From the NCBI GenBank assembly GCA_020433805.1, contig JAGRBZ010000007.1, positions 249-64,248 of the forward strand: a DNA stretch of 64,000 nucleotides, written 5' to 3'. Positions 2,827 through 36,861 of the stretch are shown piece by piece. Below the pieces are notes generated by a model. That model had not been told where the DNA came from. It saw only the letters and a program-made list of their open reading frames with translations, and made no database searches. The position numbers and the translations under genes are program-made. This DNA comes from Anaerolineae bacterium (GTDB lineage: Bacteria; Chloroflexota; Anaerolineae; 4572-78; J111). Position 1 is the stretch's first letter. Each line of letters starts with the position of its first letter.

Positions 2827-2886
2827 AATTGAGTACCGATTAATATATTATAACGTCTATCAACCGATTTGGCAAAATTAACCAAA

Positions 2887-2957: not shown

Positions 2958-2967
2958 CTATTTAAGG

Positions 2968-3040: not shown

Positions 3041-3099
3041 ATAAATAGTTTTAATTAAAACTAAAAGCTTTTTTGTTGCCAACTATATTCAATTTTAAC

Positions 3100-3133
3100 G
3101 ACCGGTAGTATAACATATTGCCTACTACCGGTC
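3100..3133 (-). terminator. Perfect 11-bp hairpin downstream of the integrase stop (possible terminator or protein-binding palindrome)
   Basis: gaccggtagta-taacatattgcc-tactaccggtc. There is no clear U-tract on either strand. Confidence 0.3.
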
Positions 3134-3189
3134 AAATTCTACCCCATTTGCTCCGATTAACCGGCATTAATTATGCTGTTCTTTTGCTC

Positions 3190-5627: not shown

Positions 5628-5661
5628 TTTGCTCTCCGATACAAAAATTTAGAAAGGCGAT

Positions 5662-5690
5662 TTGACAAATCCACTTTGATTGAGTAAATT
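5662..5690 (+). promoter_or_regulatory. Candidate internal promoter upstream of gene 2 of the cluster
   Basis: TTGACA (5662-5667), 17-nt spacer, TAAATT (5685-5690), inside the 130-nt AT-rich spacer between genes 1 and 2. Confidence 0.3.
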
Positions 5691-5757
5691 GTAGTTACGA
5701 TTTCACTAATTTTAAGTGAATTGACATATAGACACAGTGAATATTCAGGGAGAAAAA

Positions 5758-7496: not shown

Positions 7497-7499
7497 CCT

Positions 7500-11000: not shown

Positions 11001-11006
11001 GATAGC

Positions 11007-13613: not shown

Positions 13614-13640
13614 TCATCAAGCTTAATCCAGGAGACCGAG

Positions 13641-19800: not shown

Positions 19801-20164
19801 GCAGCAAATGTTAGGGCGGTTCCAAAGCCACGAATTGTACCACAGGATGAACAGCGCCGAGCGCTGTCTGCACGAGGTTCCTTATAGTCTGCCCGTGGAC
19901 GGCGCCGTGGAGTCAGGCAGAATGGATGCCTTGTTTCTTCAGGACGATACGTGGCACGTGGTTGAATTCAAAACTGATGCTGTGCGTGACGAGTCTGAAC
20001 GAGAGAGGGTGCTGGCCCAAACCGATTATCTGGCCCAGGTTCAGCGTTACCGGCAGGTAATTGAGGTCATGCTGGGCCAGAAGCCGAAAATCATTTTCTG
20101 CTGGCTCAACTATGCCGGTCGGGTTGAGGTGCGGACTGATTTACGTAGTAAAACAGAAGCTTGA
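16823..20164 (+). CDS. addA: AddA/UvrD-like helicase-nuclease subunit
   Basis: TAGAGTGKT, ITFTQKAAREMRNR, ILVDEFQDTN, FIVGDAKQSIYRFRGA, TIHAAKGLEFPVV, LLYVAVTRAEEKV. C-terminal RecB-type nuclease GRMDALF...HVVEFKTD. Start set at ATG 16823 (TGATG overlap with the addB stop, GGGAGGA Shine-Dalgarno), not the ORF-track start 16787. Confidence 0.9.
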   Translation: MVFHPIVQQLSPSEEQTPAILARNQEVVVTAGAGTGKTRTLVARYLALLSEGTGLRSIVAITFTQKAAREMRNRLRDAIREYLDRTDLSEDERGLWQAHYSTLDAARVSTIHSLCAEILRAHPAEAGLDPRFEVLEEGLTNVLREQVIAESLTWAANQPEVVSLFGLLGEAVLRRTLAVLLNRRLETSAIFATMPDNLIEHWHQHLSQTQAQVLAVLTSSTAWQANLETLRQNEPTNSADKLEAHRQTALAVAANPTGLLAHLDTIKLNVGSQKNWPGGAEQVAEVKAALKTIRELWKKEKQFLLLALNELDETAADALPRLRRLFQYGHDRFIALKEAQNSLDFDDLEDKTLRLLRDQETVRQRWQRDIQAILVDEFQDTNDRQRDLVALLNGDQGKLFIVGDAKQSIYRFRGADVSVFRAERDEIVARGGQHVPLETSYRAHSDLIEGMNELLAPVLGRAADPTRPWLEPFSALEPHRQVAGQGFTAPHIELHLTVGSKSDGALDHAASVLVNRLIELVEAEEIYTGVGDKARRLDYGHVAILCRSSTSFAAYEDALEAAGIPFLTVAGRGFYERPEIRDLLNALQAIADPTDDLALVGLLRSPAFSLSDEGLYRLHQARTQTSSSFWETLTSSALHLSETEKLRLDRTRPIIDRLHRQVGRMPVADILKQFLDETDYRAALIQIGQQRSARNVSKLLADANTAELVSVNEFLAYINNLRDSGSREGEARTPAEGAVQLLTIHAAKGLEFPVVALGDVSYKPPTWQEILIDPELSLLIPHRDEEKNIAASYLLGNRTDSEQEEAEFKRLLYVAVTRAEEKVLLSGAISLNKDNKLKRASGWLALLAETDNLGLGDLTIEHNETGDKAIELTLSVGQSPVRCTNYEPGYSFTQSGRIATVEPEILAPVPPPLLDPVTVSKAPLPAERLPRIARVVSSAVRRRAPAWVVGDLTHKALATWRFGEDGFEVWLAAQARNYGLTDNEQVTDAVQKAQQMLGRFQSHELYHRMNSAERCLHEVPYSLPVDGAVESGRMDALFLQDDTWHVVEFKTDAVRDESERERVLAQTDYLAQVQRYRQVIEVMLGQKPKIIFCWLNYAGRVEVRTDLRSKTEA

Positions 20165-20425
20165 TCCTATAATAAAACTATAACATTTCCTTTGACTGAT
20201 CAGGGTGAAATCACGTAACTTAAATCTCCTACCTAATTGTGAACTATTTTAACCTAACCCAGCCTAATTCCCTGTCCGGCGAATAATCAGATTGATGTGC
20301 ACTTCTAGCGTAAACCAACTAACCTGACGTCATTGAGAAATTAACCTAAGCCTGCTACCATCTATAGTGTACTTTGTTTTTTGAGTACGGCCTCTTGAAT
20401 GGATACCAAAGAAACTGTTTGAGTT

Positions 20426-23400
20426 ATGTCGAAATTCAGAACATTACGAAATAGAGATGCTTCGAGCACTGTTCGGGGATATGTCTATCAAGTTGATCTT
20501 ACAATCGAAAAGTGGTTAAAGTTACAGCCTGAAGAAATTCTTGAACTTGAATGTGGAGAAGATATAGATCTTATTTCACCCTTGCTTACTGTTATTCCTG
20601 AAGAAGAGCAACGACTGCTTGAACAAATCAAGCAGCGAGAGAGGCCAATCACATTACGAAGTGATGAAGCAATTGAAGCGCTTGCTAATTTCTTGGAGCA
20701 TCGCAAGAGCAATCCTAGCATAGAGCTTATTTTTCAGTATACAACCAGTGCTAAAATAGGCAAGGAACAAAAATCACCAATGACAGATAAAATGGCTGCT
20801 ATTGTTGCCTGGGAAAATATTCGTACAGGCATCTGGCGTAATCCAGATGATCCCAAATTTAAGAAGGCGCTGGATGGTATTTGGAGAATTTTGCACACAA
20901 AGCAAAAGCCTCAAAGCGTACCCCAGAAAACTTGGCAAATCTTTAGAGACTTCCTCGAGGAGTCTGATAGGGAAAAGTTGCTTGAAGTAATCCGCAAATT
21001 TATCTGGAACACAAACACTCGTCCTGCCAGTGATATGAGGCTACGTATTCAACAATTACTTGTGGACAATCGATATGCTAGCAGTGAAACCGAAGCCGAA
21101 GCACAGTATCCAAGACTATTTCTATACATATTCAAGCTGCTCTCTAAGAGCGATGAAAAACAACTCACGGTAAAAAACAGGGAAGAGCAATTAGCTTTGC
21201 CCTGGTTGGACAACAATACTCAAGAATTGTTAGACACACTCATGGCAAAACTCGTGAATGTAACCACCGTTGAGCAATTGTTCAGCAACAACCCTGCCTA
21301 TGAGAATATTGAAACGTTATATGTCCCTCCCCTGGAATTTGAGACAATCAAATCTGTACTTCAAGAAAAGAATATGGTTTGTATTGTGGGCGAGCCACAT
21401 ATGGGTAAGACCTTCACGGCCGTATATCTCTTGTTGTCCTATTATCGTCAGGGCTATCACATCCATTTAATGGGGAACGATAATAGAATATCTATTGCCG
21501 GGCGTTATTCCTGGTCAGATTACGACAAAGATGACCTCAGAAAGTTTATCCAACCTGGTCAAATCACTTATATAGACGACCCATATGGTGCGACGGAAGA
21601 AGACTTCAAATATGCTCAAGAGAGATTTGATTTAAAAATACTTCTGGACGCAGTTCAGTCCAATGATAATGATCATCAACCGCCTAAACTTATCGTCACA
21701 ATGCGAAGGTCGGTTTTTGAACGAGTTGTGCAAGATACCCCACAGATAAGACAGCTTATACTCGATATTTACAAAGGCACTTCCTATGATGAGGAAAGCC
21801 GTCGCATCGTTTTAAGTAGATATATCAATTTCCTTGAACCAAAGTGGGCTTCGGACAACCCGATAATGCAAACAGTCCTTGAAACCGCGCCTAATAAATT
21901 GGTTGCTCCGCACAATATTTATTGGTTTGTTGACCACTCTAAAGATCACGAAAAATTAAATGATGTGTTATTGGCAATGAAAAACGCTAAGGAAATTGTC
22001 CCAGCATTAGCAAGTGAGATAAATCATCTTTCATCAGAGCTTGATCAACTTGTATTTGTAACCATGTATATTACTGATTTCAAACCTGGCTTTCAACGTT
22101 TCCCTCACATGGGCTTGCCTGGCCGTAACTGTTTTAATCACTATCAGATTTTTGCCGAAGCATTAGGTCATAATGACCCTGAAAAAGTTCTCCAGAGATT
22201 TAAAGCTACTTTAGCAAATTGGTCGGCTGTATTTATGGCAATTGGGTTGAAGAGCATTGGAACCGAGTCTCAACATATCGCCGGTGCTGTTTTCCAACAT
22301 CCTTCATTTGCAGAAGCAACGGCTCAATTTATTGAGAAAAGCAAGACCAAAGGTGTTTTTGCAGAATTATGTCTTCAATTCCAAAAGCTCATTTTTGATG
22401 CACAAACTTATGATTCAGCGATGATGTTGGTTCACCCATTGTTTAGACACTTTGAATGTTTACGGCCTGCTGTGTTAGACCAAACTCAAGAGTCATTTAG
22501 AACCGGCGAAAAGTTTGCCCAAAGGACGATTGTTGAAGCATTATTGGCAAATTATCATCAACTCCCGAGCCAACTTCAGCCATTTTTTGATGAGCTGGAC
22601 CCTGAAAACGATAAAGAGATCTGGTATATGTTTATGAAGGCTGCTTGGCCGAATCCTAATCTATTAGTTGAACAAAGAATAGAACTCTGGCGACGGGCGC
22701 TGATTGGAGGCGTTGTATATCCGCCTAATCCACTTTCCTCTAATCTGATGGACGGACCATTTTTGTACTATAGACGGTTGCCAAGCGAATTGCAGAAAAT
22801 CATCCTCGCTTATTTTGAGTTACGCAATCAATATGGCTGGTATTGTGTAGCTTATGCTCTTCTTAATAATTACAATTATCTCCCAGAAGAACTCCAAGAA
22901 TGGTTTCCAATATTGGCATCTGAGGGGGATGAGTACGTAGTTTACCAAATTATGTCAGCTTTGAGGAGTAATTATGAGGGTTTGCCTACTGAAGTTCAAG
23001 CTCTGGTAGTAGATTTCGGAACTGATGAAAATTGGAAATATCGTGCTTATATTGCTCAAATGTTTTGGCATAAAACTGAAACTTTACGATCTGATCATGC
23101 TAAACTTGTAATAGATCTAGCATTACAGGACCAAGACAGCCGTGTCCGTTTGTCAGTCGTCTACAGCCGACTTGTCTTAGCAAGTCTACAGAAAATAGAG
23201 GAGATGGATTCGGCGTATCCCTCAAAAATCTTTAATAGTTTGTTTTACTCTGAGTATCCTGAAGATAAGGCCGGCGTTCTTTTCTCAATATTCGATACAG
23301 CTAGATTCTGGAATGGTTCGAGGGAAGCAGAAGTTTATCGGCGACGATTTGCTGATTTGGTGGCAAGTACGGAACCAATCGTCATTGCAATGATGAGATA

Positions 23401-23542
23401 TAAATTGCAGGAAGACTACCCCTCAAGTTTACCACCACTACCACCTATCACATTACCAGAAACGGAATTGTCCCAATACAAGAGCGAGGTTGAATCGTTG
23501 ACGAGTGGATTGGTCAGCGTCAACTATGGGCCAGGCCATTAG
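20426..23542 (+). CDS. Cap4/DUF4297-like PD-(D/E)xK nuclease head + STAND-type P-loop NTPase + HEAT-like repeat tail (Avs-like antiviral NTPase candidate)
   Basis: N-terminus STVRGYVYQVDLTIEKWL...LECGEDIDLI...LEQIKQR. Walker A VGEPHMGKT (aa 321-329). Walker B ITYIDDPYG (aa 380-388). Four spaced repeats carry NY-x-x-LP-[SET]-[EQ]-[LV]-Q (aa 704-864). AT-rich relative to the flanks. Confidence 0.7.
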   Translation: MSKFRTLRNRDASSTVRGYVYQVDLTIEKWLKLQPEEILELECGEDIDLISPLLTVIPEEEQRLLEQIKQRERPITLRSDEAIEALANFLEHRKSNPSIELIFQYTTSAKIGKEQKSPMTDKMAAIVAWENIRTGIWRNPDDPKFKKALDGIWRILHTKQKPQSVPQKTWQIFRDFLEESDREKLLEVIRKFIWNTNTRPASDMRLRIQQLLVDNRYASSETEAEAQYPRLFLYIFKLLSKSDEKQLTVKNREEQLALPWLDNNTQELLDTLMAKLVNVTTVEQLFSNNPAYENIETLYVPPLEFETIKSVLQEKNMVCIVGEPHMGKTFTAVYLLLSYYRQGYHIHLMGNDNRISIAGRYSWSDYDKDDLRKFIQPGQITYIDDPYGATEEDFKYAQERFDLKILLDAVQSNDNDHQPPKLIVTMRRSVFERVVQDTPQIRQLILDIYKGTSYDEESRRIVLSRYINFLEPKWASDNPIMQTVLETAPNKLVAPHNIYWFVDHSKDHEKLNDVLLAMKNAKEIVPALASEINHLSSELDQLVFVTMYITDFKPGFQRFPHMGLPGRNCFNHYQIFAEALGHNDPEKVLQRFKATLANWSAVFMAIGLKSIGTESQHIAGAVFQHPSFAEATAQFIEKSKTKGVFAELCLQFQKLIFDAQTYDSAMMLVHPLFRHFECLRPAVLDQTQESFRTGEKFAQRTIVEALLANYHQLPSQLQPFFDELDPENDKEIWYMFMKAAWPNPNLLVEQRIELWRRALIGGVVYPPNPLSSNLMDGPFLYYRRLPSELQKIILAYFELRNQYGWYCVAYALLNNYNYLPEELQEWFPILASEGDEYVVYQIMSALRSNYEGLPTEVQALVVDFGTDENWKYRAYIAQMFWHKTETLRSDHAKLVIDLALQDQDSRVRLSVVYSRLVLASLQKIEEMDSAYPSKIFNSLFYSEYPEDKAGVLFSIFDTARFWNGSREAEVYRRRFADLVASTEPIVIAMMRYKLQEDYPSSLPPLPPITLPETELSQYKSEVESLTSGLVSVNYGPGH

Positions 23543-23752
23543 CAAATCAAAAACCAGGAAAAGGGCCAAGAATCCTGATGTGCATTTCAACTAACTCCGT
23601 GGTGTAACAATGTGTCAGCAAGCGTCGATGCATTCGATTTGTATGATGGGGTGTACAGCGGTGTTACTCAACGGATTGATGGTGATTCTTATCTAAAATT
23701 TTCGATGTCTTTAAATATTTGGAAAACTATGAAGAAATTATAGTATTTTCCT

Positions 23753-25072
23753 CTTAGTAACAGAGGGGGTAGCCATTTGCCAGTATCTAGGGAGGAAGGA
23801 CGAAATGGGCAACAAGGTCGGGATCAGGTAGAGCTGGCAAAATAGGAAAAGGAACCCCCTGGTTCAAAATATGATCTAAAAAGATAAAACCTAATTGAAC
23901 TAAACTATGATAAAAGGCATCGGTACGCACCAGACAACGAAAGATGCCCGAAAAAATGGCTTCAATGCCTAACAAAATGAGCAGATAATAAGCCACCGCG
24001 GCAGCCAACAAAAAGCGTTCCAGGCGTTCAGGCGTACGAATACGGGTCCGATCCAACTGAAAGCCCCGGCTCTTGAAATCGGCAAAACAGGTTTCAATAG
24101 TAAAGCGGTGTTCATACCACTGTTTGGCCTCTTGTTGAGTGGGACAGTTGGTCACAAAAAAGATATGGTGTTGTTCGGTCTGGTGCCAGGCAATGAAAAT
24201 ATTCAAGCCTGCAACTGGCTGCTTATGAATGAAAGGACAGTGTAGCAACAAAGCTGTATCGGTTGAGGCAAGGCCCAATTCCTGCCCGATTTCCGTCAGC
24301 GACAGCCATTTACCATCAAAATAAGCCAGATGGCTGTGACTGGTACGACAGACAAACTGCCAGTTGGTTTGTTGAGTGAGCCAGGTTAAGACCTGTGTCC
24401 CATCAAACTCAGCATCAGCCACGAACACCACTTGGCTAGCAGTTGGCACTAAAGTGGCCACATATTGTAAAAGTTCAAGTTGTTCCTGTTGAGGGGTATG
24501 TCCTTTCTTGCCTTTCAAACAATGCCAGGCAATTGGAATGGCCCGCTTTTTGTAATAGACACTGACCAGCAAACACAGACAGCGACCGCCCAATTTGGTA
24601 CTATCCATCATTAACACCAGTGGCTGGTTGGGAGCTAGGCGCTGCAACATTTGCCTGGCTAAAGGTTATAGACAGACTTGACCTGCAACCATCGGCTTTT
24701 GATAAAACGTTCAAAACGGCTGACCAGGCTGGGTGTCTTGTAGTCGTACAGGACTTTTTGGGCTATCTTGGTCAACCGTCCATCCCGACTGCGTAACAAG
24801 CCTGTGACCAACATGGCCAGGCTCAGCCGATGTTCTGCCAGCAGGTAGGGAAATTGTTGGCTCAGTTCGTCGACTATGAAACGAAACAAGCGAGCGGCAT
24901 CACTATTATTCTGTCTTTTTTTGTCGTCGTTTACGACGGCGTTGATATTTGTTACATCGGGTCTGGTATTGTTTTCGGATCGTTTGCATTTCTCAGCTCC
25001 TTCATATTTTTTAGCTGTACTTTGCTAAACTTTATCCGTTTTTGTCAATTCCTGACCCCCTACGTTACTAAG
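23753..25072 (-). mobile_element. IS4-family insertion sequence (1320 bp) with imperfect terminal inverted repeats (IRs) and 8-bp target duplication
   Basis: Ends are CTTAGTAACAGAGGGGG (23753-) and the reverse complement of CCCCCTACGTTACTAAG (-25072). ATTTTCCT flanks both sides directly (23745-23752 and 25073-25080). The transposase carries a Y-x2-R-x3-E-x6-K motif (YEHRFTIETCFADFK). Confidence 0.85.
23787..24889 (-). pseudogene. IS4-family DDE transposase, split by a 1-nt deletion
   Basis: ORFs 24659-24889 and 23787-24650 are one gene. Copy 2 reads ...VYEPLARQMLQR... continuously. This copy reads ...VYNL* and then restarts at MLQR in another frame (aacctttagcc versus gagcccttggcc). Confidence 0.75.
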
Positions 25073-25130
25073 ATTTTCCTCTTGGAGATTTTTTGAGGGC
25101 ATAGCAAACCTTTTTGCACGAAACCACTGG

Positions 25131-25374
25131 TTACAACTTGCGATCAATAACAACCAAGATTTTCATCCAGTTTGTACCATTCTCTAGTCGTTTCTGATGA
25201 TAGACTTGATATTCGGGTACTGTTCGTACGATACCAACCGCCAATAACCATAAAATCCGAGGCCTGAAACGATTGCCTTGATGGGACATTGTCTTCTGTT
25301 CTTGACAAGCCAAAGTAACTGAGGAGATGTTTAAGAGGATGAAACCGGTCGAGTGAGTCTAACTCAGCCAACAC
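25131..25374 (-). pseudogene. IS110-family transposase C-terminal remnant (frameshifted)
   Basis: Two overlapping frames give ...LDRFHPLKHLLSYFGLS... and ...GNRFRPRILWLLAVGIVRTVPEYQVYHQKRLENG...VVIDRKL, which resembles the IS110 C-terminal domain. No N-terminal part is present. Confidence 0.5.
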
Positions 25375-25544
25375 TGTGCCCAGTGACAGATAGCTACCAT
25401 AGCCTAAGTTACCATGAAAAGAGTCAAGAGAGTATCTTAGGTTAAGATAATTTTATGATTAAGATTTAGACTGGTTTCACATAGAAATAATGTTCTGATA
25501 CAATAGTTATTATTGTCCCAATAAGGTTGCAAGAGGAACCAAGT

Positions 25545-28500
25545 ATGCCGACGTTTGCTACAAGTCCGTTACCTGTACCCGAATCGTGGAAAGAGTTTGA
25601 AAAAATAGCCAGAGACATATACGCACGCCTTTGGCAAGATCCTAATGCTGAACTCAATGGACGTGACGGCCAATCGCAGCATGGCGTAGATGTTTATGGT
25701 CAACCTTGGGATTTGCAAGGTAGATATGTAGGTGTTCAATGCAAACGTTACAGAGAGACTAAACTCACCAAAACAAAGATCATAAAGGAAATTAAAAAAG
25801 CTGAACAATTCACCCCAAAGTTATTTGAGTATATTATCGTCACGACAGAGGTCAAAGATGGTGCTTTGCAAGAAATCGTTCGGGAAATAAATGTTGAACG
25901 TCTGGCAAACCAAAAGTTTCCTGTTCGTTTAGTCTTCTGGGAAGATCTATGTACCAACTATTTAGCCCATCCCGATTATCGCGATCTCCTACGTGAAATT
26001 GCTCGAAAACATTACTCGGATTGGGTAAACCTTTTTTCAGAAATAAAAGCTTTAGAAAGTTCGTCAATTTTTCAAATCAGTGTCGAGCGTGAACATAATC
26101 TTGGATCCCTCACCTTGCAAGAACGCCATCTCCAAGAACGATTGGAGGTTTTGAGAGCTGAAGCTAATAATGGCTACAAAGAAGCCATACAACCACAGGT
26201 AAGTGCATTGGTTTCAGATATGGAAAATATTGCTCAAGATGCTAACCTTGACTCGGAATTACAGGGACAGGTTTATCGGCTTGCAGCAAATGTTGTCTTA
26301 CCCAATCGTCCTGGTGGAGATACCAAGCAATGTAGAAATTATCTCTTGAAAGCACGAACATTTTCATCTTCAGGTGACGGACTTGTCAAGTGTCAGATCA
26401 TCGAAGCTTTATTGGCCTATCTAACACGTGGCTTAGACGTTGCTCTGGCAATGGTGGATGACATCGAGGGTAAAGAAGCTGACCGTTTCCGATTTAGCAT
26501 GTATTTGGAGAATAATGAATGGGCCGCTTGCACGACGTTGCTGCAAACCTATAAAGAAACCGACTTGTCCAACACGAAGGACTGGTTGCGATTGTTGGTC
26601 TTGTATTATGCAGGGGTTGGCAATCGGGTAAAGCTAGAGGAAATATCAGAACAATTGCTGGCTTCCATTAGTCATGCAGACCACTATATGATGGCCGGAT
26701 TCGCCTGGGTACGTTTGGCCTACCGACAGTACCAACATTTTTGCGAAAAACATGATGTTTGTCCCGCTTTACATATAGAACTAGCTCTGGATGAGTTAAT
26801 AGATTTTGAGGCTCGACAACAAGCCCTAGATATGTTCGCCCGAGCTTTTGAGATATATCGCGAGAAAAACTGTATTTTAACCGCGCAGCAAGCTCTACTA
26901 ACAGCAATACAATTAGCAATGGATGAGTCAGACTCCAAACGATTAGACCAGCTCCTTGAGCAGCTACAGGCACTTGATCCACAACACCCTCTCGTGATAT
27001 TGAAAAGGGATGAAATTAGGTTATCCAAACTAGCCAAACCGGAAGCTGTAACTGAGCAATTAGAGAAGTTACTCATTGATTCTGAAACTGACCTAGCCCT
27101 TGGTCTTGCCCTTGATGTGTCTCAAGAGGATGAAACTATAACCAAACAAGTTGCTTACCTGCTGGCACATCATCAGACACGTTTTGAACACGACGATATT
27201 GCTTCTGTCCAGTTTTTATACAAAGTCTTTCACTTGCATATGCAAGCAGATGCTCAGCCAGAAGCAAAAACTTGGCTAGATAGCCTATCCCCCCCAGAAC
27301 GTTATGGTCATCTACAACCACTTTTACAATTTATATTCTATATCAAACATGATCCACCCTTAGCTCCTCAATACTTAGAGCAAGCATTAGAAAAGTACCC
27401 GGAACACCCAGAAATTTTGGCGGTTGCAACAAAATATTATTGGGGGCAAGGGGATTATCAGCGACAGATTGAGTATGCCAGAAAACTATTCGCAATTCTA
27501 CCTATTGCGTCAGTTGCCATAGAAATTCTCAATGCGTTGATAGCTGCTCAGAATTATGACGTATTTTTGCAAGGTGTTAGTGAATTTGAAAGTCTATCCA
27601 TTCCTGAAGAAGCCATAAAGTCCAAGTGTGCCTACGCCCATCTTCGTTTAGGGCAGCCTCTGAACGCTTTGGAGCATCTAGAATGGTTGCATAATCAGAA
27701 TAAAGCGCGATTGGATGAATTAATAAACTTGGCTCGCATTCTTCAATATTTGGGACAATGGGGAGACGCTTTTGCTGTATTGGGTGATTGTGTCCAACTT
27801 TATCCAGAAGAACCTGAAGCATATTTAGAATTATCGCAAGCTTATTTAGACGCAGGCCAACGCGATGAGAGTTTCCAATGGGCTATGAAAGCTCGCAGTC
27901 GTTTCCGGTATAACGCGAATGTAGCAGTTCATCTTGTCCAGGTAAGCCACCTAACCGGATTTGAACATCGCTCTGACATTCAAAAAGTGTTTCAAGAATT
28001 TTCACTTGGCGGTCGTTTTGAAAGTACAGGGTATATGAGACCCGCATCACTAGAAGAAATCAGGTCAGCACTTAAGTCTCATCGGGATTTTTCTGAAAGT
28101 TTAGAGACCTCATATCGTCAAGGAAAGATATCTTCCATGATGTTATGCTATCTCCAACCAGGTTTCCCTAATGCTCTTTTCCGCTTTCATATCATCAGCA
28201 CTCAGTTTAAGCTTCCTCGATATGTGGCGGCCGGAGATCAACCCTTTGATGCGGCTTGGTTAAAAAAGAATAATCCCAAAGAGGTTGTTCTTGATTACAC
28301 GGCCATCTTGACCTTATGGTCATTGTATCGTGATGACTGGCTTGATACATTGCGTCACAATTTTCGCCAAGTCTGGGTTCCCGATAAACTCCTCCAGGCT
28401 ATGTACTCCGAGCAAAGGTTGATGAGGCAATATGGTCAACCATCACAATACAAAATACAAAGAGCCATTAGAGATGTCATCGAACAAAAACCGGGGAAAT

Positions 28501-31500
28501 TTCACATTCATTCTCAGGCCGATTCAGTAGATAGTTGGGGTGTAACGGGGATACACGCCGAAGCTCTAATTGCAGAGGAGAAAAATCTACCATACTTGAG
28601 TGAATACGACAATGATGAATTGATATCAACAACCCAAAACATAGGTTTGCGCTCCGTAGCCAGAGTCTTAAAAAAGAGTGGGGAAATCAATAATAAGACT
28701 CATCAACACTTAACCTCACAAGCTCGTCGACGTACCCGCTCAGAAAACAGATTGGTTTTACCAAAAGAAAGTGGTCTAGTAGTAGCTATGCCTGCTCTAA
28801 TTACCATTGTAAATGCTGGTGCGCTTGAGGAATTCTGTGATTATTTCGGTGAGATCCACCTCTCCCAATCTGCCTGGCAAAGAATTTTGGCCCAAATAGC
28901 AGAATTTGAGCGTACAGAAGAAATGATTCGTGAATTGCGCCACTTGCAAAGCATGTTGGGAGAAGCTGTACAGGATGGTTTTGTACAAGTTGGGGCCGCG
29001 TCGCCTGACCAAAGATTACTTTTACAGGCGGAACAAGACAAAAAAGATGACAATACACCTACCGAAGATGCTAATTCTTTAAGAGACATCAAGCAATTTT
29101 TGTCCGAATATCTTGATGACTTGCTGTGGATTGCCCATTCTCGTCAACTTTCAATTTGGGCAGATGATCGCTGGATGAGCAAATTTTATCCCAATGAGCG
29201 TAGACCAATATTTATCTTCGGCACAGACTCATTTCTAGAATGGGCACGAAGAAAGTCTTCAGATGATGATGAATATTTTGACAGATACAGTCGCATAATT
29301 GAGTGGGGATACCTAGGTCTACCATTACACCCAAACTACATTCTGTGGTTATTGAATCAAGACTTGCAACCGGAAGCCAAGATTTTTGCAGCTGCACTAT
29401 CCCTCTATCGTCAATATGTGATAGATATTTGGAATGCTTTCCGAATCACAGGAGAAATATCAGCCGAGTTCGGAACCAAACTTTTTGATCTATATAATCA
29501 GGCAATTATCTCAACGCTATTTCAATGTTTTGAGCAGGGAATTCTTTTAAAGACTTGCGCAGATATCTTTCGAGCTTTGGATTTGACTCGAAATACCTCA
29601 TTGGCGGAAGGCAATGAACCTCAATTCTTGGCAAGTCTGATAATTAGGGGTGTTAATGATGATTGCCTTGCACAATTGGATGGTGTCGAAGAATATTTAA
29701 CAAATTGGGCTCAATTTGTGAATTTCAACCGTTGGCTCGATAAAGTATTGCAAACATCCGGGGTTACGACGGAAGTAATACAGGAGGCTTGGTATGAGTT
29801 GTTGCAATCGCCTATTGCGATGTATGACAGTGCTAAAAATGAACAGGATAGGTTGATTGCTACACTTTTTTCACAAAGATTATTTGATGCAGCTCCAGAT
29901 CATGCTAAAGATTATTTGGTCAACAGCACCCTTGAGCCAACAATGCGACAAGCTTTTGGGTTTGATGCTCAATATTCTATCATTTTTACCAGTTCTGACG
30001 GCACGATACGAGCCAAAATTCCAGCCGAAGAATGGTCAAAAGACATTAACCAAGCAATTACAGAATTTGTAACCACCGAGTCCTCAGATCCTATAACTGT
30101 AGGAACTGCCACTATACAGGCCAACTGGGTAGCTTACGGATCAATATTCCTGCGATATAAAGAGTTTCCCTCAGAACTGCACAATGATCAGCCTGACGCT
30201 AAATTCCTTGACGGAGACTCCATCAGCATTCTACCGTATGCTACTTCGGAAAATATGAAAGAACGTTTAGGCTTCTGGTTTCAGGGGCTACGAAAACTAA
30301 AAAAGATGGACGGTGACTATGACGAATGGTTAATGTTATGTAACGACATCGAGTCTGAATCATCGGCGGACGTTACAGAAGCCGGACATCGACTCCAGTG
30401 TATTTTGTTTGGTCAGTTGACAATAGCGAAAGATTACCTTACTGAAGCAACGCAAATAGGGTCTCAAGCCATCTTACATGTATTAGCTCACATAGAACCT
30501 CAAGTAGTTCGGCGATGGTTAGATCTGCCCCAGTTAGATTGGGAAACCTCGGATAGCCTGACAACTTGGGCCAAGACCGGAATAGATGAGTTGTTATCAA
30601 ATGCAAACGACACCGCAAGAATTGATTTGCTCATAAACAATTATTCGAGTTTTGGATACTCAATTTTTCCGGATGCTTTGGTTTGGCAAGAGGCTATTGA
30701 TCAATCACTAGAAGATTGCAGCCTAGCAGAGTTGCGACGTGCAATTGATGATTTAGCGATTTTGAGCGAAAAAAGCCGATCGATGCCACTAAAAGCGAAC
30801 GTCCTTTTATCACTACTTCGTTTGGAACAAATAATTGATGATGCTGAGCTTGAAGCCAGTATCTCTGAACGTATCCATAAACTAACAGCCTGTATCGCAC
30901 AACCTTGGAAATCTACTGATGAGCAGGATCGATCCTATCAAAAATTAGAACAGACGCTATGTGATTACCTTTACATGGCTTGGCTCAAACAAAATAGCTC
31001 TGATCAAGATGTATTGCGAGAAATTGCATATCTCGCCTATCTGGGCGCTGCGATTATCACAGATATGTTGGCTAGTTCCGGTTTGTTGCTACTTGAATAT
31101 ATTGATGATCTAATAAGGGAGTTAACTACAGTTGCTCAAAAACGTTGGACAAAGGAAGGCATTGTGGCCCGGCAACCACACGGTATATTTAAACCAAGGT
31201 GGGGTGTAAACCTAAATTACGCTCTTGCATATTTGCTTAGGGTTAACATCCTGAACCAGCTACATTTAGGCAAACTTGCTACTAACTCAACAACTCGTCA
31301 AACATTACTTGATGCTGGTTCACTCTACCGTCTCATTCAAGCATACATTCCTAATCTTAGCCCTAAAGAAGATTGGCTTGACTCCTTACTCGTGGCAGAC
31401 ATTGGGCAAGGGATAGCTTACATCATATCAACAGCACTTGGGGACGAATTGGAGATTTGGCCAGAGGAAGAGCAAGTAAAATTCAACATCTGTAGTACGC

Positions 31501-32090
31501 CGGAAACTGGTGTTGCTATGATCGCTGAAAGGTTAAGAAATCTTCCTGCAGCCAATGAAAATGAGATTTCACATATCGTTGGTATGTCATTCGTCTCAGC
31601 GCCAACTTGGAGTGAAGAAGCCTATCAGCTTGTTGCTGTTTTATTGTATCCAGATATTCTTAATCAAATCATGCGTTTTCCAGTTGCCTATGGAGAACTT
31701 GTGGCACAGCTTATCTATTTGCTAGCAACCGATGAAACACTTTCTACCGAGCTTGCAAATCAGGCAAAAAACCTGGTATTTGGCTTGCCACCACAACTGG
31801 ATAATAGAAGCGATCTTATAGTAACACAGGCGAGGGTATTGTCAGGGGTAATCAACTTTACCCCATACACAAAAAACATAGAAACTTGGCTAAAAGATTT
31901 GACAACTGATACGGTGATAGAGACTTCTATGGTGAGACGTGGCCTAATGCCGTTTGTAAAGTCATGGCCTCATTATGAATATGAGATTAAACAAATTGTT
32001 GGAAAAGCCCTTGCTGAAATTGCAACTATCCCACGATTTTCAAATCTATGGGAACTTAAACGAATTAGCCGCGAGTTTACTCCACAATAG
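25545..32090 (+). CDS. Giant (about 2181 aa) Mrr-like PD-(D/E)xK nuclease + TPR array + PIN-like domain + long helical C-terminal region; no P-loop detected
   Basis: N-terminus HGVDVYG...YVGVQCKRY...YIIVTT (D...Q-x-K core). TPR-like helices, for example PEAYLELSQAYLDAGQRDESFQWAMKA. VVLDYTAIL...SEQ...SEYDNDEL at aa 915-1060. No GK[ST] appears anywhere. Start set at ATG 25545 after AAGAGGA. AT-rich. Confidence 0.75.
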   Translation: MPTFATSPLPVPESWKEFEKIARDIYARLWQDPNAELNGRDGQSQHGVDVYGQPWDLQGRYVGVQCKRYRETKLTKTKIIKEIKKAEQFTPKLFEYIIVTTEVKDGALQEIVREINVERLANQKFPVRLVFWEDLCTNYLAHPDYRDLLREIARKHYSDWVNLFSEIKALESSSIFQISVEREHNLGSLTLQERHLQERLEVLRAEANNGYKEAIQPQVSALVSDMENIAQDANLDSELQGQVYRLAANVVLPNRPGGDTKQCRNYLLKARTFSSSGDGLVKCQIIEALLAYLTRGLDVALAMVDDIEGKEADRFRFSMYLENNEWAACTTLLQTYKETDLSNTKDWLRLLVLYYAGVGNRVKLEEISEQLLASISHADHYMMAGFAWVRLAYRQYQHFCEKHDVCPALHIELALDELIDFEARQQALDMFARAFEIYREKNCILTAQQALLTAIQLAMDESDSKRLDQLLEQLQALDPQHPLVILKRDEIRLSKLAKPEAVTEQLEKLLIDSETDLALGLALDVSQEDETITKQVAYLLAHHQTRFEHDDIASVQFLYKVFHLHMQADAQPEAKTWLDSLSPPERYGHLQPLLQFIFYIKHDPPLAPQYLEQALEKYPEHPEILAVATKYYWGQGDYQRQIEYARKLFAILPIASVAIEILNALIAAQNYDVFLQGVSEFESLSIPEEAIKSKCAYAHLRLGQPLNALEHLEWLHNQNKARLDELINLARILQYLGQWGDAFAVLGDCVQLYPEEPEAYLELSQAYLDAGQRDESFQWAMKARSRFRYNANVAVHLVQVSHLTGFEHRSDIQKVFQEFSLGGRFESTGYMRPASLEEIRSALKSHRDFSESLETSYRQGKISSMMLCYLQPGFPNALFRFHIISTQFKLPRYVAAGDQPFDAAWLKKNNPKEVVLDYTAILTLWSLYRDDWLDTLRHNFRQVWVPDKLLQAMYSEQRLMRQYGQPSQYKIQRAIRDVIEQKPGKFHIHSQADSVDSWGVTGIHAEALIAEEKNLPYLSEYDNDELISTTQNIGLRSVARVLKKSGEINNKTHQHLTSQARRRTRSENRLVLPKESGLVVAMPALITIVNAGALEEFCDYFGEIHLSQSAWQRILAQIAEFERTEEMIRELRHLQSMLGEAVQDGFVQVGAASPDQRLLLQAEQDKKDDNTPTEDANSLRDIKQFLSEYLDDLLWIAHSRQLSIWADDRWMSKFYPNERRPIFIFGTDSFLEWARRKSSDDDEYFDRYSRIIEWGYLGLPLHPNYILWLLNQDLQPEAKIFAAALSLYRQYVIDIWNAFRITGEISAEFGTKLFDLYNQAIISTLFQCFEQGILLKTCADIFRALDLTRNTSLAEGNEPQFLASLIIRGVNDDCLAQLDGVEEYLTNWAQFVNFNRWLDKVLQTSGVTTEVIQEAWYELLQSPIAMYDSAKNEQDRLIATLFSQRLFDAAPDHAKDYLVNSTLEPTMRQAFGFDAQYSIIFTSSDGTIRAKIPAEEWSKDINQAITEFVTTESSDPITVGTATIQANWVAYGSIFLRYKEFPSELHNDQPDAKFLDGDSISILPYATSENMKERLGFWFQGLRKLKKMDGDYDEWLMLCNDIESESSADVTEAGHRLQCILFGQLTIAKDYLTEATQIGSQAILHVLAHIEPQVVRRWLDLPQLDWETSDSLTTWAKTGIDELLSNANDTARIDLLINNYSSFGYSIFPDALVWQEAIDQSLEDCSLAELRRAIDDLAILSEKSRSMPLKANVLLSLLRLEQIIDDAELEASISERIHKLTACIAQPWKSTDEQDRSYQKLEQTLCDYLYMAWLKQNSSDQDVLREIAYLAYLGAAIITDMLASSGLLLLEYIDDLIRELTTVAQKRWTKEGIVARQPHGIFKPRWGVNLNYALAYLLRVNILNQLHLGKLATNSTTRQTLLDAGSLYRLIQAYIPNLSPKEDWLDSLLVADIGQGIAYIISTALGDELEIWPEEEQVKFNICSTPETGVAMIAERLRNLPAANENEISHIVGMSFVSAPTWSEEAYQLVAVLLYPDILNQIMRFPVAYGELVAQLIYLLATDETLSTELANQAKNLVFGLPPQLDNRSDLIVTQARVLSGVINFTPYTKNIETWLKDLTTDTVIETSMVRRGLMPFVKSWPHYEYEIKQIVGKALAEIATIPRFSNLWELKRISREFTPQ

Positions 32091-32446
32091 GTGGGTAATT
32101 CTCGTGAAATTGGTAGATCATTGCCAAAACTACGTATAGGCTATGACACCGTCGTCGACCCCATTACCACTACGTTTTTAATTCTAAACCCTCGATATCA
32201 TTCGAAACAAAACCCTTGAACCAACCTTTCTCATCTAATATGCTGCTCCTGTAACCACAAAATCGACGTCTTCTAATTGCTCTTGTGCGGCCAAGTTTCT
32301 GACCATAGGTTCCAAATTACCACTTTTTTGGGTCCGTAACGCCAATATTTTTGGCCGTAAAACACAAACGAGAGGTATTGACCCAACTCGCCAGGAATGA
32401 TACGCTGACAAAAATCTCTAATGAAATTACGGGACAGGAGGCCAGC

Positions 32447-33364
32447 GTGAATATCGAGGCTTTTCTACAGTTTCTGCAGGCGGAAGATCGGGCCGAGCGG
32501 ACCATTGCCGGCTATGCGCGTGATCTGACCAAATTTCTGGCATGGTTTGAACAAACCACCGGCCGGCAACCCCAGCCGGCGATTGTCACCCCGCTAGACA
32601 TCCGCGAATATCGCCGCCATTTGCAGCAGGAAAAACGGCTCAAACCGGCCAGCGTCAATCGCCGTCTGGCCGCGCTGCGGGTCTATTTCCGCTGGGCTAC
32701 CGAAACCGGTCTCATTGCCGCCAACCCGGCGGCATCCATCAAGATGCTGCCCCAAATCGGGCAAGGTCCCCGCTGGCTGGAGCGGGACGAAGCCTACGCC
32801 CTGATCCGGGAAGCGGATGCGACCATTCGATTGGCCAAGGCTAAAGAACTGACCCCCTCAGCCAATCTGGCCACCCGCAACGCCGCGATTTTGTCGTTGT
32901 TGCTGCACGGATTGCGAGTGTCGGAAGTGTGTGCGCTACGTCTGGAAGATGTAACCATCAGGGAGCGAAGCGGCAAGGTAGTGGTTCATGCCGGCAAGGG
33001 CAACAAATACCGGGAGGTGCCGATCAATGTCGATGCCCGCCAGACCGTGTCGGCCTGGTTAAAGGTACGGCTGGATGATAACGGCATCTACCTTTTCACC
33101 GGACGGCGCGATCAACAGTTGCAACCCCGGGCCGTTCAGCGCTTTTTGGATCGGCTGGCCCGGCGGGCCGGTCTTGATCCACAGAAAGTGACGCCCCACG
33201 CCTGCCGCCATACCTTCGGCAAGAGTTTGGTCGATGCCGGCGAGTCGCTGGACCGGGTAGCGATCTTGATGGGGCATAATGACCTGTCGACGACTGCCCT
33301 TTACACCACCCCCTCGCGGACGGACCTGGCCAGTGCGGTTGAGAAAATTGCCTGGCAGGATTGA
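32447..33364 (+). CDS. XerC/XerD-like tyrosine recombinase
   Basis: LHGLRVSEV (Arg), HACRHTFG (H-x-x-R), GHNDLSTTALYT (Tyr). Start proposed at GTG 32447 (GGAGG 7 nt upstream); the longest ORF starts at 32351. Confidence 0.88.
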   Translation: MNIEAFLQFLQAEDRAERTIAGYARDLTKFLAWFEQTTGRQPQPAIVTPLDIREYRRHLQQEKRLKPASVNRRLAALRVYFRWATETGLIAANPAASIKMLPQIGQGPRWLERDEAYALIREADATIRLAKAKELTPSANLATRNAAILSLLLHGLRVSEVCALRLEDVTIRERSGKVVVHAGKGNKYREVPINVDARQTVSAWLKVRLDDNGIYLFTGRRDQQLQPRAVQRFLDRLARRAGLDPQKVTPHACRHTFGKSLVDAGESLDRVAILMGHNDLSTTALYTTPSRTDLASAVEKIAWQD

Positions 33365-36294: not shown

Positions 36295-36861
36295 ATGGAT
36301 GACAAGCTACTTAAAAGATATCTTGAATACGCAAACACCGAAGAGTCCTTTGCAGTTCTCTTTGTGAAGAAGCATCTCGCTCAAGCAAAAGGGCATTGGG
36401 TAGATATTGTCGATTGCCGACGCTATGAGATGTCCTCGGATAATTTACATTTCCGATTCGTTGTAGGCCGCCTGTATAAGAGAAAAATAAAACCGCAGTA
36501 TCCCTCAAAATCCGCATACACCATTGATGGCAAATTTGACGAACGTGGATATTACTTGATGACACGAGCCATAACGTGGGAAACCGCACACAAGGACATA
36601 GAGCAGCAACAGTCAAAGAACGTGGCGGTGTCGAAATTCAAGATAACAGGCGTGAGCTACGATAAGAATCGAGGCAACAAGAACTATTTTCGGGACGACG
36701 CACCACCCGAGATAAAGGCTCTTGCAAGGGATCTTAACGACCGTACAGACCCACTGTGGGACAAGGCCATGCAATATGTTAACAAGCCGGAGTTTGTTTA
36801 TGAAATAAAACAGGTTTCGATGGTAAAGCGGTGTTCATACCAATATTTGGCCTGCTGTTGA
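36295..36861 (+). CDS. Orphan hypothetical protein; its 3' end runs into the truncated IS4 copy
   Basis: AT-rich ORF with no motif recognised. The last roughly 18 codons are read from IS-derived sequence (homology to 24084 onward starts near 36806), so the native C-terminus is probably lost. Confidence 0.4.
   Translation: MDDKLLKRYLEYANTEESFAVLFVKKHLAQAKGHWVDIVDCRRYEMSSDNLHFRFVVGRLYKRKIKPQYPSKSAYTIDGKFDERGYYLMTRAITWETAHKDIEQQQSKNVAVSKFKITGVSYDKNRGNKNYFRDDAPPEIKALARDLNDRTDPLWDKAMQYVNKPEFVYEIKQVSMVKRCSYQYLACC

What the first reader, a model, noticed from the sequence alone, without database searches (positions are those of the whole stretch)
20165..32350. AT-rich block with two nuclease-headed giants, possibly one acquired two-gene unit later split by IS insertion
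**Seen.**
- Composition drops sharply at about 20165 (end of addA) and rises again at about 32100-32350.
- Within the block the 1038-aa and roughly 2181-aa genes are co-directional and similarly AT-rich. Each begins with a PD-(D/E)xK domain.
- Only the first has a P-loop.
- They are separated by an IS4 element with its own intact 8-bp TSD, which marks a secondary insertion, and by an IS110 scrap.

**Inference.** Before the IS arrived the genes were only a few hundred bp apart. They may function together, with an NTPase switch and a large TPR/PIN scaffold.
Basis: partly seen in the sequence, partly recalled or inferred. Interest (0 to 1): 0.7.

Follow-up and report, generated by a model that had tools for sequence, protein, structure and literature searches.

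The report
Two independent immune genes, one AT-rich insert
A 12-kb AT-rich insert in an Anaerolineae defence island carries two large nuclease-headed genes that look like separate one-gene anti-virus systems, not a working pair. The larger gene belongs to a very rare, unstudied giant family.

Summary
GC falls from 0.58 to 0.41 at about 20140 and rises again at about 32430. Gene A (1038 aa) and gene B (2181 aa) are co-directional and have statistically indistinguishable codon usage, unlike the flanking genes. Only A has a Walker A motif. A 1320-bp IS4 element with an 8-bp target duplication lies between them; its transposase is frameshifted. The "IS110 scrap" could not be verified.

The functional two-gene reading is not supported.
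- A is a complete Avs-like STAND protein: DUF4297/Cap4-type nuclease, nSTAND3 NTPase and helical repeats.
- Its modules recombine freely elsewhere.
- B is homologous (hhalign E 1.6e-60) to the predicted stand-alone "effector–TPR–GreA/B-C–PIN" conflict proteins.
- B lacks the GreA/B-C domain, has two PIN-like units, and carries a 920-aa HEAT-like C-terminal module.
- That module has only 45 matches among 1.84 billion representative proteins.

In the six independent B-clade loci with usable flanks there is no A-like or STAND neighbour and no conserved partner.

Verdict: two independent single-gene defence systems, probably acquired together, inside a tRNA-side island that also holds pPIWI-RE. 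B is a new variant of a predicted kind. Interest is moderate.

The parts
20140..32430 (.). AT-rich block (GC 0.42) between the addA-like stop and the tyrosine recombinase start
   Evidence: Composition profile and change-point fit. Codon usage is distinct from the flanks.
20426..23542 (+). Gene A, 1038 aa: Avs-like STAND protein
   Evidence: ORF. Exact match to Anaerolineae MAG protein KDJ65_01915.
20426..21295 (+). A aa 1-290: DUF4297/Cap4-type PD-(D/E)xK nuclease effector
   Evidence: PADLOC LmuA 1.3e-11 and DUF4297 2.6e-8. NCBIfam DUF4297_antiphage 3.7e-7, far below its cut-off. PDB 8xav E = 0.0097. Motifs RGYVYQVDLT, GEDID and EQVK are conserved.
21320..21829 (+). A aa 299-468: nSTAND3 NTPase with Walker A GEPHMGKT
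   Evidence: Pfam PF20720 E = 1.8e-16, 60.6 bits against a cut-off of 27.2. Motif scan.
21830..23539 (+). A aa 469-1038: helical (HEAT-like) putative sensor region
   Evidence: Only weak HEAT_2 hits (E = 0.2 here; 0.001-0.005 in homologues P0072 and P0073). Collinear with P0072 and P0073 over 99%.
23745..23752 (.). Left copy of the 8-bp target-site duplication ATTTTCCT
23753..25072 (-). IS4-family element, 1320 bp, with a frameshifted transposase (76-aa and 287-aa ORFs)
   Evidence: Inverted repeats. DDE_Tnp_1 and NCBIfam IS4 match. 1-nt deletion relative to copy 2.
25073..25080 (.). Right copy of the 8-bp target-site duplication ATTTTCCT
25131..25374 (-). Alleged IS110 remnant (unverified)
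   Evidence: No Pfam, NCBIfam or tblastn support; no other copy in the window or loci.
25476..25504 (+). Best sigma-70-like match in 20100-25600 (10 of 12, extended -10), about 40 nt upstream of B
   Evidence: This is a consensus match only; the number of sites is not above chance.
25545..32090 (+). Gene B, 2181 aa: giant REase-TPR-PIN-PIN-solenoid protein
   Evidence: ORF. 100% match to P0001. Collinear with five full-length homologues.
25545..26039 (+). B aa 1-165: Mrr-type PD-(D/E)xK nuclease (variable effector position)
   Evidence: Mrr_cat 22.3 bits (cut-off 21) and Mrr_cat_2 22.4 bits (cut-off 22). D49 and Q65-C66-K67 invariant. About 55% identical heads on many other proteins.
26082..27959 (+). 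B aa ~180-805: TPR/helical array
   Evidence: TPR_19 and TPR_14 hits. PDB consensus-TPR hit 8.7e-10. hhalign to canonical family.
28251..28679 (+). B aa ~903-1045: PIN-like alpha/beta unit 1 (D917, E956, E1006 invariant)
   Evidence: Alignment. Full-length hhalign places the canonical PIN here. AF2 strand/helix pattern.
28740..29330 (+). B aa ~1066-1262: PIN-like unit 2 (DD1207-8 and D1228 invariant; first Asp is Ala in B)
   Evidence: PF20698 E = 7.4e-5, 23.5 bits, below the 27.8 cut-off. Sub-alignment hhalign 83%, E = 9.4e-6. Foldseek VapC/PIN hits for the model of aa 791-1290, which spans both PIN-like units: prob 0.98, E = 0.05.
29331..32087 (+). B aa 1263-2181: clade-specific C-terminal HEAT/ARM-like solenoid
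   Evidence: AF2 pLDDT 80.9, pTM 0.70. Foldseek CAND1/karyopherin hits at about 1e-4. 45 hits among 1.84e9 representatives.
29970..30224 (+). B aa ~1476-1560: small beta-hairpin/helix/three-strand domain inserted in the solenoid
   Evidence: DSSP on the AF2 model. No Pfam hit. hhalign to the canonical GreA/B-C segment 0.3%.
32447..33364 (+). Flanking tyrosine recombinase (GC 0.59, host-like codon usage); not part of the AT-rich block
   Evidence: Phage_integrase 1.8e-32. Codon usage matches addA at p = 0.17.
36807..37794 (-). Second, partial copy of the same IS4 element (86% identical)
   Evidence: blastn; NCBIfam IS4 3.7e-21.

Best explanation
The block is a horizontally acquired piece of a tRNA-side defence island in an Anaerolineae genome. 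It carries two self-contained, single-gene immune proteins.

**Gene A** is an Avs-type STAND sensor.
- Inferred mechanism: its C-terminal helical repeats bind a phage-derived ligand.
- The nSTAND3 NTPase then drives oligomerisation.
- Oligomerisation switches on the N-terminal DUF4297/Cap4-type DNase, giving abortive infection.

**Gene B** belongs to a rare giant sister clade of the predicted 'variable effector + TPR + GreA/B-C + PIN' conflict proteins.
- It has a swappable N-terminal effector, here an Mrr-type DNase.
- Behind it lies a constant core of about 2000 aa: a TPR array, two PIN-like units and a HEAT-like solenoid with a small beta domain.
- Inferred mechanism: the core is an NTPase-free sensor and autoinhibitory scaffold that releases the DNase, and perhaps PIN RNase activity, on infection.

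The two genes probably arrived together or from the same donor pool, because their codon usage is the same. An IS4 element already resident in the host later inserted between them and then decayed. They are neighbours, not partners.

**Shown:** domains, homology, composition, IS anatomy, and the absence of conserved adjacency.
**Inferred:** the defence role, ligand sensing and the activation steps.
For: **Gene A**
- nSTAND3 E = 1.8e-16. LmuA/DUF4297 nuclease head 1.3e-11.
- nSTAND3 is the NTPase of experimentally studied Avs5 (bioRxiv 10.1101/2025.07.08.663546).
- Modules shuffle. The head occurs at 40-50% identity on ~1430-aa proteins with no nSTAND3 hit; two carry NACHT/AAA_16 hits. The NTPase core occurs with SIR2 (P0075) or with unknown heads (P0072, P0073).

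**Gene B**
- hhalign of the giants against the canonical family: probability 100%, E = 1.6e-60 over about 1000 columns.
- The canonical family was described as stand-alone with swappable effectors (PMC8195603).
- The giant clade shows the same pattern. A giant HMM aligns from position ~180 onward in relatives headed by SIR2, TIR+SIR2, DUF4062 or unknown domains.
- Catalytic D49/QCK67 and D917/E956 are invariant.

**Context**
- Giants sit next to a type I R-M system (L002), next to pP_pnuc and PHP-AAA genes (L001), or alone among housekeeping genes (L007). Most have lower GC than their flanks.
- The window holds a complete pPIWI-RE system and an integrase beside three tRNA genes.

**Independence**
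- No A-like hit in 61 loci and no conserved flanking gene.
- B has its own promoter-like site.

**Co-acquisition and IS order**
- Codon usage of A against B gives p = 0.26; each differs from addA at p < 0.001.
- The IS has a target duplication, a second diverged copy in the host DNA, and codon usage unlike A or B.
Against: - No experiment exists for A, B or even the canonical TPR-GreA/B-C-PIN family. None was found in the paper library, and PADLOC has no model for them.
- The sample of giant neighbourhoods is small: six independent B-clade loci, several on short contigs.
- A has no other full-length homologue, so its own partner preferences are known only from relatives of its NTPase core.
- In a deeper, SIR2-headed branch the giant is followed by a ParA-like ATPase and a conserved ~450-aa protein. 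Some relatives therefore do use an NTPase partner.
- The PIN assignments are weak: below the Pfam cut-off, on a model of pLDDT 64.
- Equal codon usage cannot separate one acquisition event from two events with similar donors.
Confidence: 0.7

Rival explanations
1. First reader's model. A and B form one two-gene system: A's NTPase acts as the switch and B as a large TPR/PIN scaffold and effector. An IS split the operon.
For: - The genes are adjacent and co-directional, with identical codon usage.
- They were about 670 nt apart before the IS.
- B has no NTPase of its own.
- A deeper branch of B's family is operonic with an NTPase, but a ParA-like one, not a STAND.
Against: - No STAND or DUF4297 gene lies beside any of six independent B-clade giants.
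- No giant lies beside relatives of A's core.
- A is a complete effector-switch-sensor protein.
- B's canonical relatives were reported as stand-alone.
- The intergenic space holds a promoter-like site for B.
- The pair is seen only in this one lineage, as identical sequence in three assemblies.
Confidence: 0.08
2. A and B were acquired separately. Two independent insertions hit the same hotspot of the island, and similar composition only reflects similar AT-rich donors or the general AT bias of mobile defence genes.
For: - Giants are also lower in GC than their flanks in most other loci (L002 0.556 against 0.64-0.66; L007 0.519 against 0.58-0.65).
- The closest relatives point in different directions. 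A's head is closest to cyanobacterial proteins. B is closest to Anaerolineae and Chloroflexi MAG proteins.
- The gap between the genes holds an IS and unexplained extra sequence.
Against: - Synonymous codon usage is indistinguishable (p = 0.26) and GC3 is 0.373 against 0.357.
- There is a single sharp boundary on each side and no GC-rich host sequence between the genes.
Confidence: 0.2
3. Assembly or binning artefact: the AT-rich block is a chimeric join of DNA from another organism.
For: - There is a sharp 17-point GC step at both ends.
- A's nuclease head is most similar to cyanobacterial proteins.
Against: - Both junctions recur base-for-base in separate assemblies and samples. ERZ27309110, ERZ28655559 and the NCBI MAG carry the block, and five further contigs span the B-xer junction.
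- A diverged second copy of the same IS lies in the neighbouring host DNA.
- B's relatives occur in other Anaerolineae MAGs.
Confidence: 0.02

Closest known systems
AVAST/Avs STAND defence proteins, especially Avs5 (SIR2 + nSTAND3 + repeats)
   Same: Gene A has the same three-part layout: N-terminal effector, STAND NTPase of the nSTAND3 type (PF20720, E = 1.8e-16), and C-terminal helical repeats. A relative of its NTPase core (P0075) has the Avs5 architecture SIR2_2 + nSTAND3.
   Different: The effector is a DUF4297/Cap4-type nuclease, not SIR2. From my own knowledge, this head resembles the Cap4-like heads reported for some Avs3 proteins. No PADLOC Avs model matched; only the candidate PDC-S73 matched weakly. 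The full-length combination is unique in 5.8e9 clusters. It is untested experimentally.
Effector-TPR-GreA/B-C-PIN conflict system (Kaur, Iyer, Burroughs, Aravind 2021, eLife 10:e70394; Pfam PF20698)
   Same: Gene B is homologous over its first ~1100 residues (hhalign E = 1.6e-60). It has the same Mrr-type head as members such as P0012 and P0019, a TPR array, a PIN-like domain, swappable N-terminal effectors, and stand-alone gene organisation.
   Different: - No GreA/B-C domain: there is a gap in the profile alignment, and the model of aa 791-902 is all helical.
- Two PIN-like units instead of one.
- An extra 920-aa HEAT-like module with an inserted beta domain, giving 2181 aa against about 1300.
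- The proposed docking onto the RNA polymerase secondary channel therefore cannot be carried over.
Lamassu LmuA and DUF4297-HerA nucleases
   Same: A's head matches the PADLOC LmuA and DUF4297 models and PDB 8xav.
   Different: There is no LmuB/SMC or HerA partner nearby. The head is fused to a STAND NTPase instead.
IS4-family insertion sequences
   Same: DDE_Tnp_1 transposase, terminal inverted repeats and an 8-bp target duplication.
   Different: The transposase is inactivated by a 1-nt deletion.

Membership tests
Avs/AVAST-type STAND defence protein (gene A) | STAND NTPase core with Walker A | tested here: met
   PF20720 nSTAND3, 60.6 bits against a cut-off of 27.2; GEPHMGKT at aa 322.
Avs/AVAST-type STAND defence protein (gene A) | N-terminal effector domain (nuclease, SIR2 or similar) | tested here: met
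   PADLOC LmuA 1.3e-11 over aa 8-263 and DUF4297 2.6e-8. The GEDID...EQ(V/I)K motif is conserved in 16 homologues. Pfam itself gave no DUF4297 hit.
Avs/AVAST-type STAND defence protein (gene A) | C-terminal repeat (TPR-like) sensor | tested here: inconclusive
   Only weak HEAT_2 hits (E = 0.2; 0.001-0.005 in P0072 and P0073). No structure was predicted for A.
Avs5 specifically (gene A) | SIR2 effector | tested here: not met
   A has no SIR2 hit. SIR2 is present in the relative P0075.
Avs/AVAST-type STAND defence protein (gene A) | Protects against phage | not testable with these tools
   Needs a plaque or infection assay.
Effector-TPR-GreA/B-C-PIN system (gene B) | Variable N-terminal effector on a constant core | tested here: met
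   Mrr head in B; SIR2, TIR+SIR2, DUF4062 and unknown heads on relatives that align to giant HMM positions ~180-2170.
Effector-TPR-GreA/B-C-PIN system (gene B) | TPR array | tested here: met
   TPR_19 and TPR_14 above their cut-offs; PDB consensus-TPR hit 8.7e-10.
Effector-TPR-GreA/B-C-PIN system (gene B) | GreA/B C-terminal domain | tested here: not met
   The canonical GreA/B-C columns (P0012 ~800-885) are a gap in the giants. Sub-alignment hhalign gives 0.1-0.3%. There is no Pfam hit. The AF2 model of aa 791-902 is helical but of low confidence.
Effector-TPR-GreA/B-C-PIN system (gene B) | PIN domain of the PF20698 type | tested here: inconclusive
   23.5 bits against a cut-off of 27.8. hhalign of unit 2 gives 83%. 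Foldseek VapC hits have prob 0.98 but E = 0.05 on a model of pLDDT 64. Which unit is the orthologue is unclear.
Effector-TPR-GreA/B-C-PIN system (gene B) | Stand-alone gene with few conserved neighbours | tested here: met
   No shared flanking gene among the independent loci L001, L004, L005, L007, L008 and L015; the called genes around L002 are also different. The SIR2-headed deep branch is an exception, with a ParA-like gene downstream.
Hypothetical A+B two-gene system | Homologues of both genes recur as neighbours | tested here: not met
   tblastn with A against 61 loci hit only the window's own contig. The neighbourhoods of P0072 and P0075 lack giants.
IS4 insertion sequence | DDE transposase, terminal inverted repeats and target-site duplication | tested here: met
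   The transposase is frameshifted.
IS110 remnant | Similarity to an IS110 transposase | tested here: not met
   No hit in Pfam or NCBIfam at E up to 5, and none by tblastn against plasmids.

The most novel reading that the evidence does not exclude
The B-type giants are a distinct, uncharacterised immune family.
- They have a ~2000-aa NTPase-free constant core: a TPR array, two PIN-like units, and a HEAT-like solenoid with an inserted beta domain.
- This core has replaced the GreA/B-C polymerase-docking domain of its smaller relatives with a new sensing module, so it would recognise infection by a mechanism not yet described.
- The deeper SIR2-headed branch works as a three-gene operon: giant (sometimes split in two), ParA-like ATPase and a conserved ~450-aa protein.
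- B's branch would then have become autonomous.
Probability: 0.4. Interest if true: 0.6.

Novelty: new variant of a known kind. Interest (0 to 1): 0.45.

Why it matters
- The result corrects a tempting operon call. Adjacency plus shared composition here reflects co-transfer inside a defence island, not a shared mechanism.
- It places a 2181-aa orphan in a family frame. B is a rare giant offshoot of the predicted TPR-GreA/B-C-PIN conflict proteins, with about 45 detectable relatives among 15 billion proteins.
- That offshoot keeps the swappable-effector logic but has lost the domain on which the only published mechanistic proposal rests.
- If giants of this clade protect against phage, they would be among the largest single-chain, NTPase-free bacterial immune sensors.
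- The ParA-linked branch offers a natural comparison for how activation is controlled.
- Gene A adds a nuclease-headed member to the nSTAND3 (Avs5-type) group.

Tried and rejected
- **IS110 remnant.** Single frames and a frameshift-merged peptide gave nothing in Pfam, NCBIfam or tblastn against plasmids. No second copy exists in the window or in the loci.
- **att-like repeats at the block ends.** The two borders share no direct or inverted k-mer of 9 nt or longer.
- **Repeat of the tRNA/integrase region elsewhere.** Nothing of 16 nt or longer is repeated.
- **Empty-site or IS-free alleles.**
  - Exact look-ups of A, B and the recombinase returned only the same arrangement or fragments of it.
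- **GreA/B-C domain relocated to the beta domain at aa ~1476-1560.** hhalign gave 0.3% and Pfam gave no hit. The order of secondary-structure elements (hairpin, helix, three strands) remains compatible with an FKBP-like fold, but a domain-level fold search was not possible.
- **Orthology of the two PIN units.** Full-length hhalign favours unit 1, while the sub-alignment and Pfam favour unit 2. This is left open, with tandem duplication as a possibility.
- **Other database searches for B.**
  - PADLOC gave no hit for B or for the canonical family.
  - The PDB sequence search gave only TPR hits.
- **ParA-like partner.** None is present in the window or in the closer giants' loci.
- **Literature.** One search was wasted on the substring 'nstand'.
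Full report
**1. The observation**

A 500-nt GC profile shows 0.52-0.63 across the addB-like and addA-like genes (13641-20164). It shows 0.39-0.48 from 20000 to 32499 and about 0.60 from 32500.
- Segment means are 0.584 (left flank), 0.419 (block; 0.413 without the IS) and 0.587 (right flank).
- Two-segment likelihood fits put the steps at 20139 and 32430. The first is 25 nt before the addA-like stop. The second is just before the recombinase start used in public gene calls (32447).
- The window as a whole is heterogeneous (0.40-0.62 per kb), but this is its longest and lowest stretch.

- A is 20426-23542 (1038 aa).
- B is 25527 or 25545 to 32090 (2187 or 2181 aa). The database version starts at the ATG at 25545.
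- Both are on the plus strand.

**2. The IS and the gap**

The IS element spans 23753-25072. Its ends are CTTAGTAAC.../...GTTACTAAG and it is flanked by ATTTTCCT on both sides.
- Its transposase matches DDE_Tnp_1 and the NCBIfam IS4 model.
- The transposase is split into 76-aa and 287-aa ORFs by a 1-nt deletion. This shows in a comparison with a second, 86%-identical partial copy at 36807-37794.
- The IS family is therefore resident in the host DNA, the insertion came after the block, and this copy is now dead.

Removing the IS leaves about 670 nt between A and B. The proposed IS110 remnant found no support in any search. The best promoter-like match of the whole 20100-25600 interval lies about 40 nt upstream of B, but that is a consensus match only.

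**3. Composition test**

Within-amino-acid permutation of synonymous codons gave the following.

| Comparison | p |
|---|---|
| A against B | 0.26 (RSCU r = 0.72) |
| A or B against addA | < 0.001 |
| addA against addB | 0.15 |
| addA against recombinase | 0.17 |
| IS4 transposase against A or B | < 0.001 |

The block is therefore one compositional class set into a different, internally uniform background, and the IS is a third class. This supports the 'acquired' part of the reading and fits a single acquisition, but it cannot prove one.

The block is not an assembly artefact. Both junctions recur identically in other assemblies and samples.

**4. Gene A**

- Pfam finds nSTAND3 at aa 299-468 (E = 1.8e-16).
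- PADLOC finds an LmuA-type/DUF4297 nuclease at aa 8-263 (1.3e-11).
- NCBIfam and PDB 8xav give weak DUF4297 matches to the first 50 residues.
- An alignment with 16 homologous heads shows conserved RGYVYQVDLT, GEDID and EQ(V/I)K motifs. This is a PD-(D/E)xK-type signature.
- The exact protein is annotated in an Anaerolineae MAG.

No other full-length homologue exists in 5.8 billion clusters.
- The head recurs at 40-50% identity on ~1430-aa proteins that lack an nSTAND3 hit, many of them cyanobacterial; two carry NACHT/AAA_16 hits.
- The NTPase-plus-repeat core recurs in P0072 and P0073 with an unknown head, and in P0075 with a SIR2_2 head.
- SIR2 + nSTAND3 + repeats is the architecture of Avs5, which has been shown to defend against jumbo phages (bioRxiv 10.1101/2025.07.08.663546).

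A is thus a complete effector-switch-sensor protein of the Avs kind with a swapped effector.

**5. Gene B**

Pfam gives borderline Mrr_cat and Mrr_cat_2 hits, TPR hits, and a sub-threshold PIN-TPR-GreABC hit. PADLOC gives nothing.

Only five other full-length homologues (31-60% identity) turned up among 5.8 billion clusters. A set of ~1300-aa TPR/PF20698 proteins also matched locally. Those belong to the system described by Kaur et al. 2021. That system has a variable N-terminal effector fused to a constant TPR + GreA/B-C + PIN region. It occurs mostly as stand-alone genes and is proposed to dock on the RNA polymerase secondary channel (PMC8195603).

Profile-profile comparison of the six giants with 13 canonical members gives probability 100% and E = 1.6e-60 over about 1000 columns. 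It includes the same Mrr head. There are three differences.
- **No GreA/B-C domain.**
  - The canonical GreA/B-C columns are a gap in the giants.
  - The corresponding stretch is helical in the model and has no GreA_GreB signal.
- **Two PIN-like units.**
  - Unit 1 (aa ~903-1045) has invariant D917, E956 and E1006.
  - Unit 2 (aa ~1066-1262) has invariant DD1207-8 and D1228, but its first Asp is Ala in B.
  - The model (pLDDT 64) draws VapC/PIN hits at weak E-values.
  - Which unit is orthologous to the canonical PIN is unresolved.
- **An extra 920-aa C-terminal module.**
  - It models well (pLDDT 80.9, pTM 0.70) as a HEAT/ARM-like solenoid with a small inserted beta domain.
  - Foldseek returns only generic karyopherin/CAND1-type matches.

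**6. How rare, and how modular**

HMMER with the C-terminal module against 1.84 billion representatives found 45 proteins. About 20 of these are full-length giants of 2070-2426 aa.

A giant HMM aligns to them from position ~180 onward. Their heads differ: SIR2_2, TIR+SIR2, DUF4062 or unknown. This swappable-effector pattern is the strongest argument for a conflict or immune role.

**7. The co-occurrence test**

I examined six independent B-clade giant loci with usable flanks.
- L001: pP_pnuc and PHP-AAA genes upstream.
- L002 (identical to L009): directly after a type I R-M system.
- L004 and L005: small unknown genes.
- L007: between a radical-SAM gene and an argininosuccinate lyase gene.
- L008 (identical to L016): TPR proteins and an unknown 384-aa gene upstream.

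L015 is a seventh locus, but its giant is cut at the contig start, so only the downstream flank was seen.

- No flanking protein is shared between loci.
- tblastn with A against all 61 loci hit only the window's own contig.
- The neighbourhoods of P0072 and P0075 contain no giant.
- All contigs that carry A are the same sequence as the window.

The functional-pair hypothesis therefore fails its own test.

**8. A qualification**

In the distant SIR2-headed branch the giant is followed, with overlapping start and stop codons, by a ParA-like ATPase.
- L079 carries a single 2333-aa giant gene followed by the ParA-like gene and a ~450-aa gene.
- L069 carries a 1414-aa gene plus a 920-aa gene, followed by the same two genes.
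- The ~450-aa protein is conserved between L079 and L069 (29% identity, E = 3e-39).
- L068 shows a C-module gene, cut at the contig start, followed by a ParA-like gene; its contig ends 250 nt after that gene.

An NTPase partner does therefore exist in part of the wider family, but it is not a STAND. It is absent from the window and from the closer loci.

**9. Context**

- Three tRNA genes (2753-3040) abut an integrase (3190-4278).
- They are followed by a complete pPIWI-RE system: PprRE, PprDinG and PprPIWI.
- Next come the AddB/AddA-like pair, the AT-rich block, and a second tyrosine recombinase.
- The finding therefore sits inside a larger defence island.

**10. Verdict**

- The description is accurate apart from the IS110 item.
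- The 'acquired together, later split by an IS' part is plausible.
- The 'work together' part is not supported.
- A is a new member of a known kind. B is a new variant of a predicted kind that remains untested.
- The defence function and the activation mechanism are inferences from domain logic and context.
- I found no experimental work on B's family.

Noticed in passing
window 2753-4278: A cluster of tRNA-Asp, tRNA-Gln and tRNA-Phe (minus strand) lies directly beside a tyrosine integrase (3190-4278, minus strand). It looks like the edge of a tRNA-side genomic island running to at least about 33.4 kb. No att-like repeat of the tRNA region was found downstream.
   Followed up: partly
window 6345-20164: A complete pPIWI-RE system is present: PprRE 6345-7496, PprDinG 7500-11000 and PprPIWI 11007-13613. 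It is followed after 28 nt by a co-directional AddB-like/AddA-like pair at a higher GC of 0.58-0.60. The 'addAB' genes may belong to the defence island rather than to housekeeping recombination.
   Followed up: partly
window 36807-37794: A second, partial copy of the same IS4 element is 86% identical over 990 nt. Its reading frame is intact across the site where the copy between A and B has a 1-nt deletion.
   Followed up: yes
L069 884-10437; L079 331-10062; L068 1-3943: SIR2-headed relatives of B form an operon with overlapping start and stop codons: the giant, a ParA-like ATPase and, in L069 and L079, a conserved ~450-aa protein of unknown function. In L069 the giant is split into a 1414-aa and a 920-aa gene. 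In L068 only a C-module gene cut at the contig start and the ParA-like gene are seen before the contig ends.
   Followed up: partly
L001 507-5104: The closest homologue of B (60% aa identity; 71% nucleotide identity over 4 kb) lies beside a pP_pnuc_1 nuclease gene and a PHP + AAA_23/SMC_N gene. Components linked to pPIWI-RE thus sit near giants in two separate loci.
   Followed up: no
L010-L061 (N-terminal matches only): B's Mrr-type head (aa 1-160 to 210) recurs at 45-56% identity on dozens of metagenomic and Chloroflexota or Anaerolineae genes whose downstream parts do not match B. This head is therefore much more common than the giant core.
   Followed up: no
window 20249-20263 and 20341-20355: An imperfect 15-nt direct repeat (TTAACCTAACCCAGC / TTAACCTAAGCCTGC), 92 nt apart, lies in the AT-rich leader upstream of gene A. 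The second copy overlaps promoter-like hexamers.
   Followed up: no
window 4761-6348: A HATPase_c protein and a winged-helix (MarR/CARF-like HTH) protein at GC of about 0.44 lie between the integrase and the pPIWI-RE genes. This is another low-GC patch of the island.
   Followed up: no
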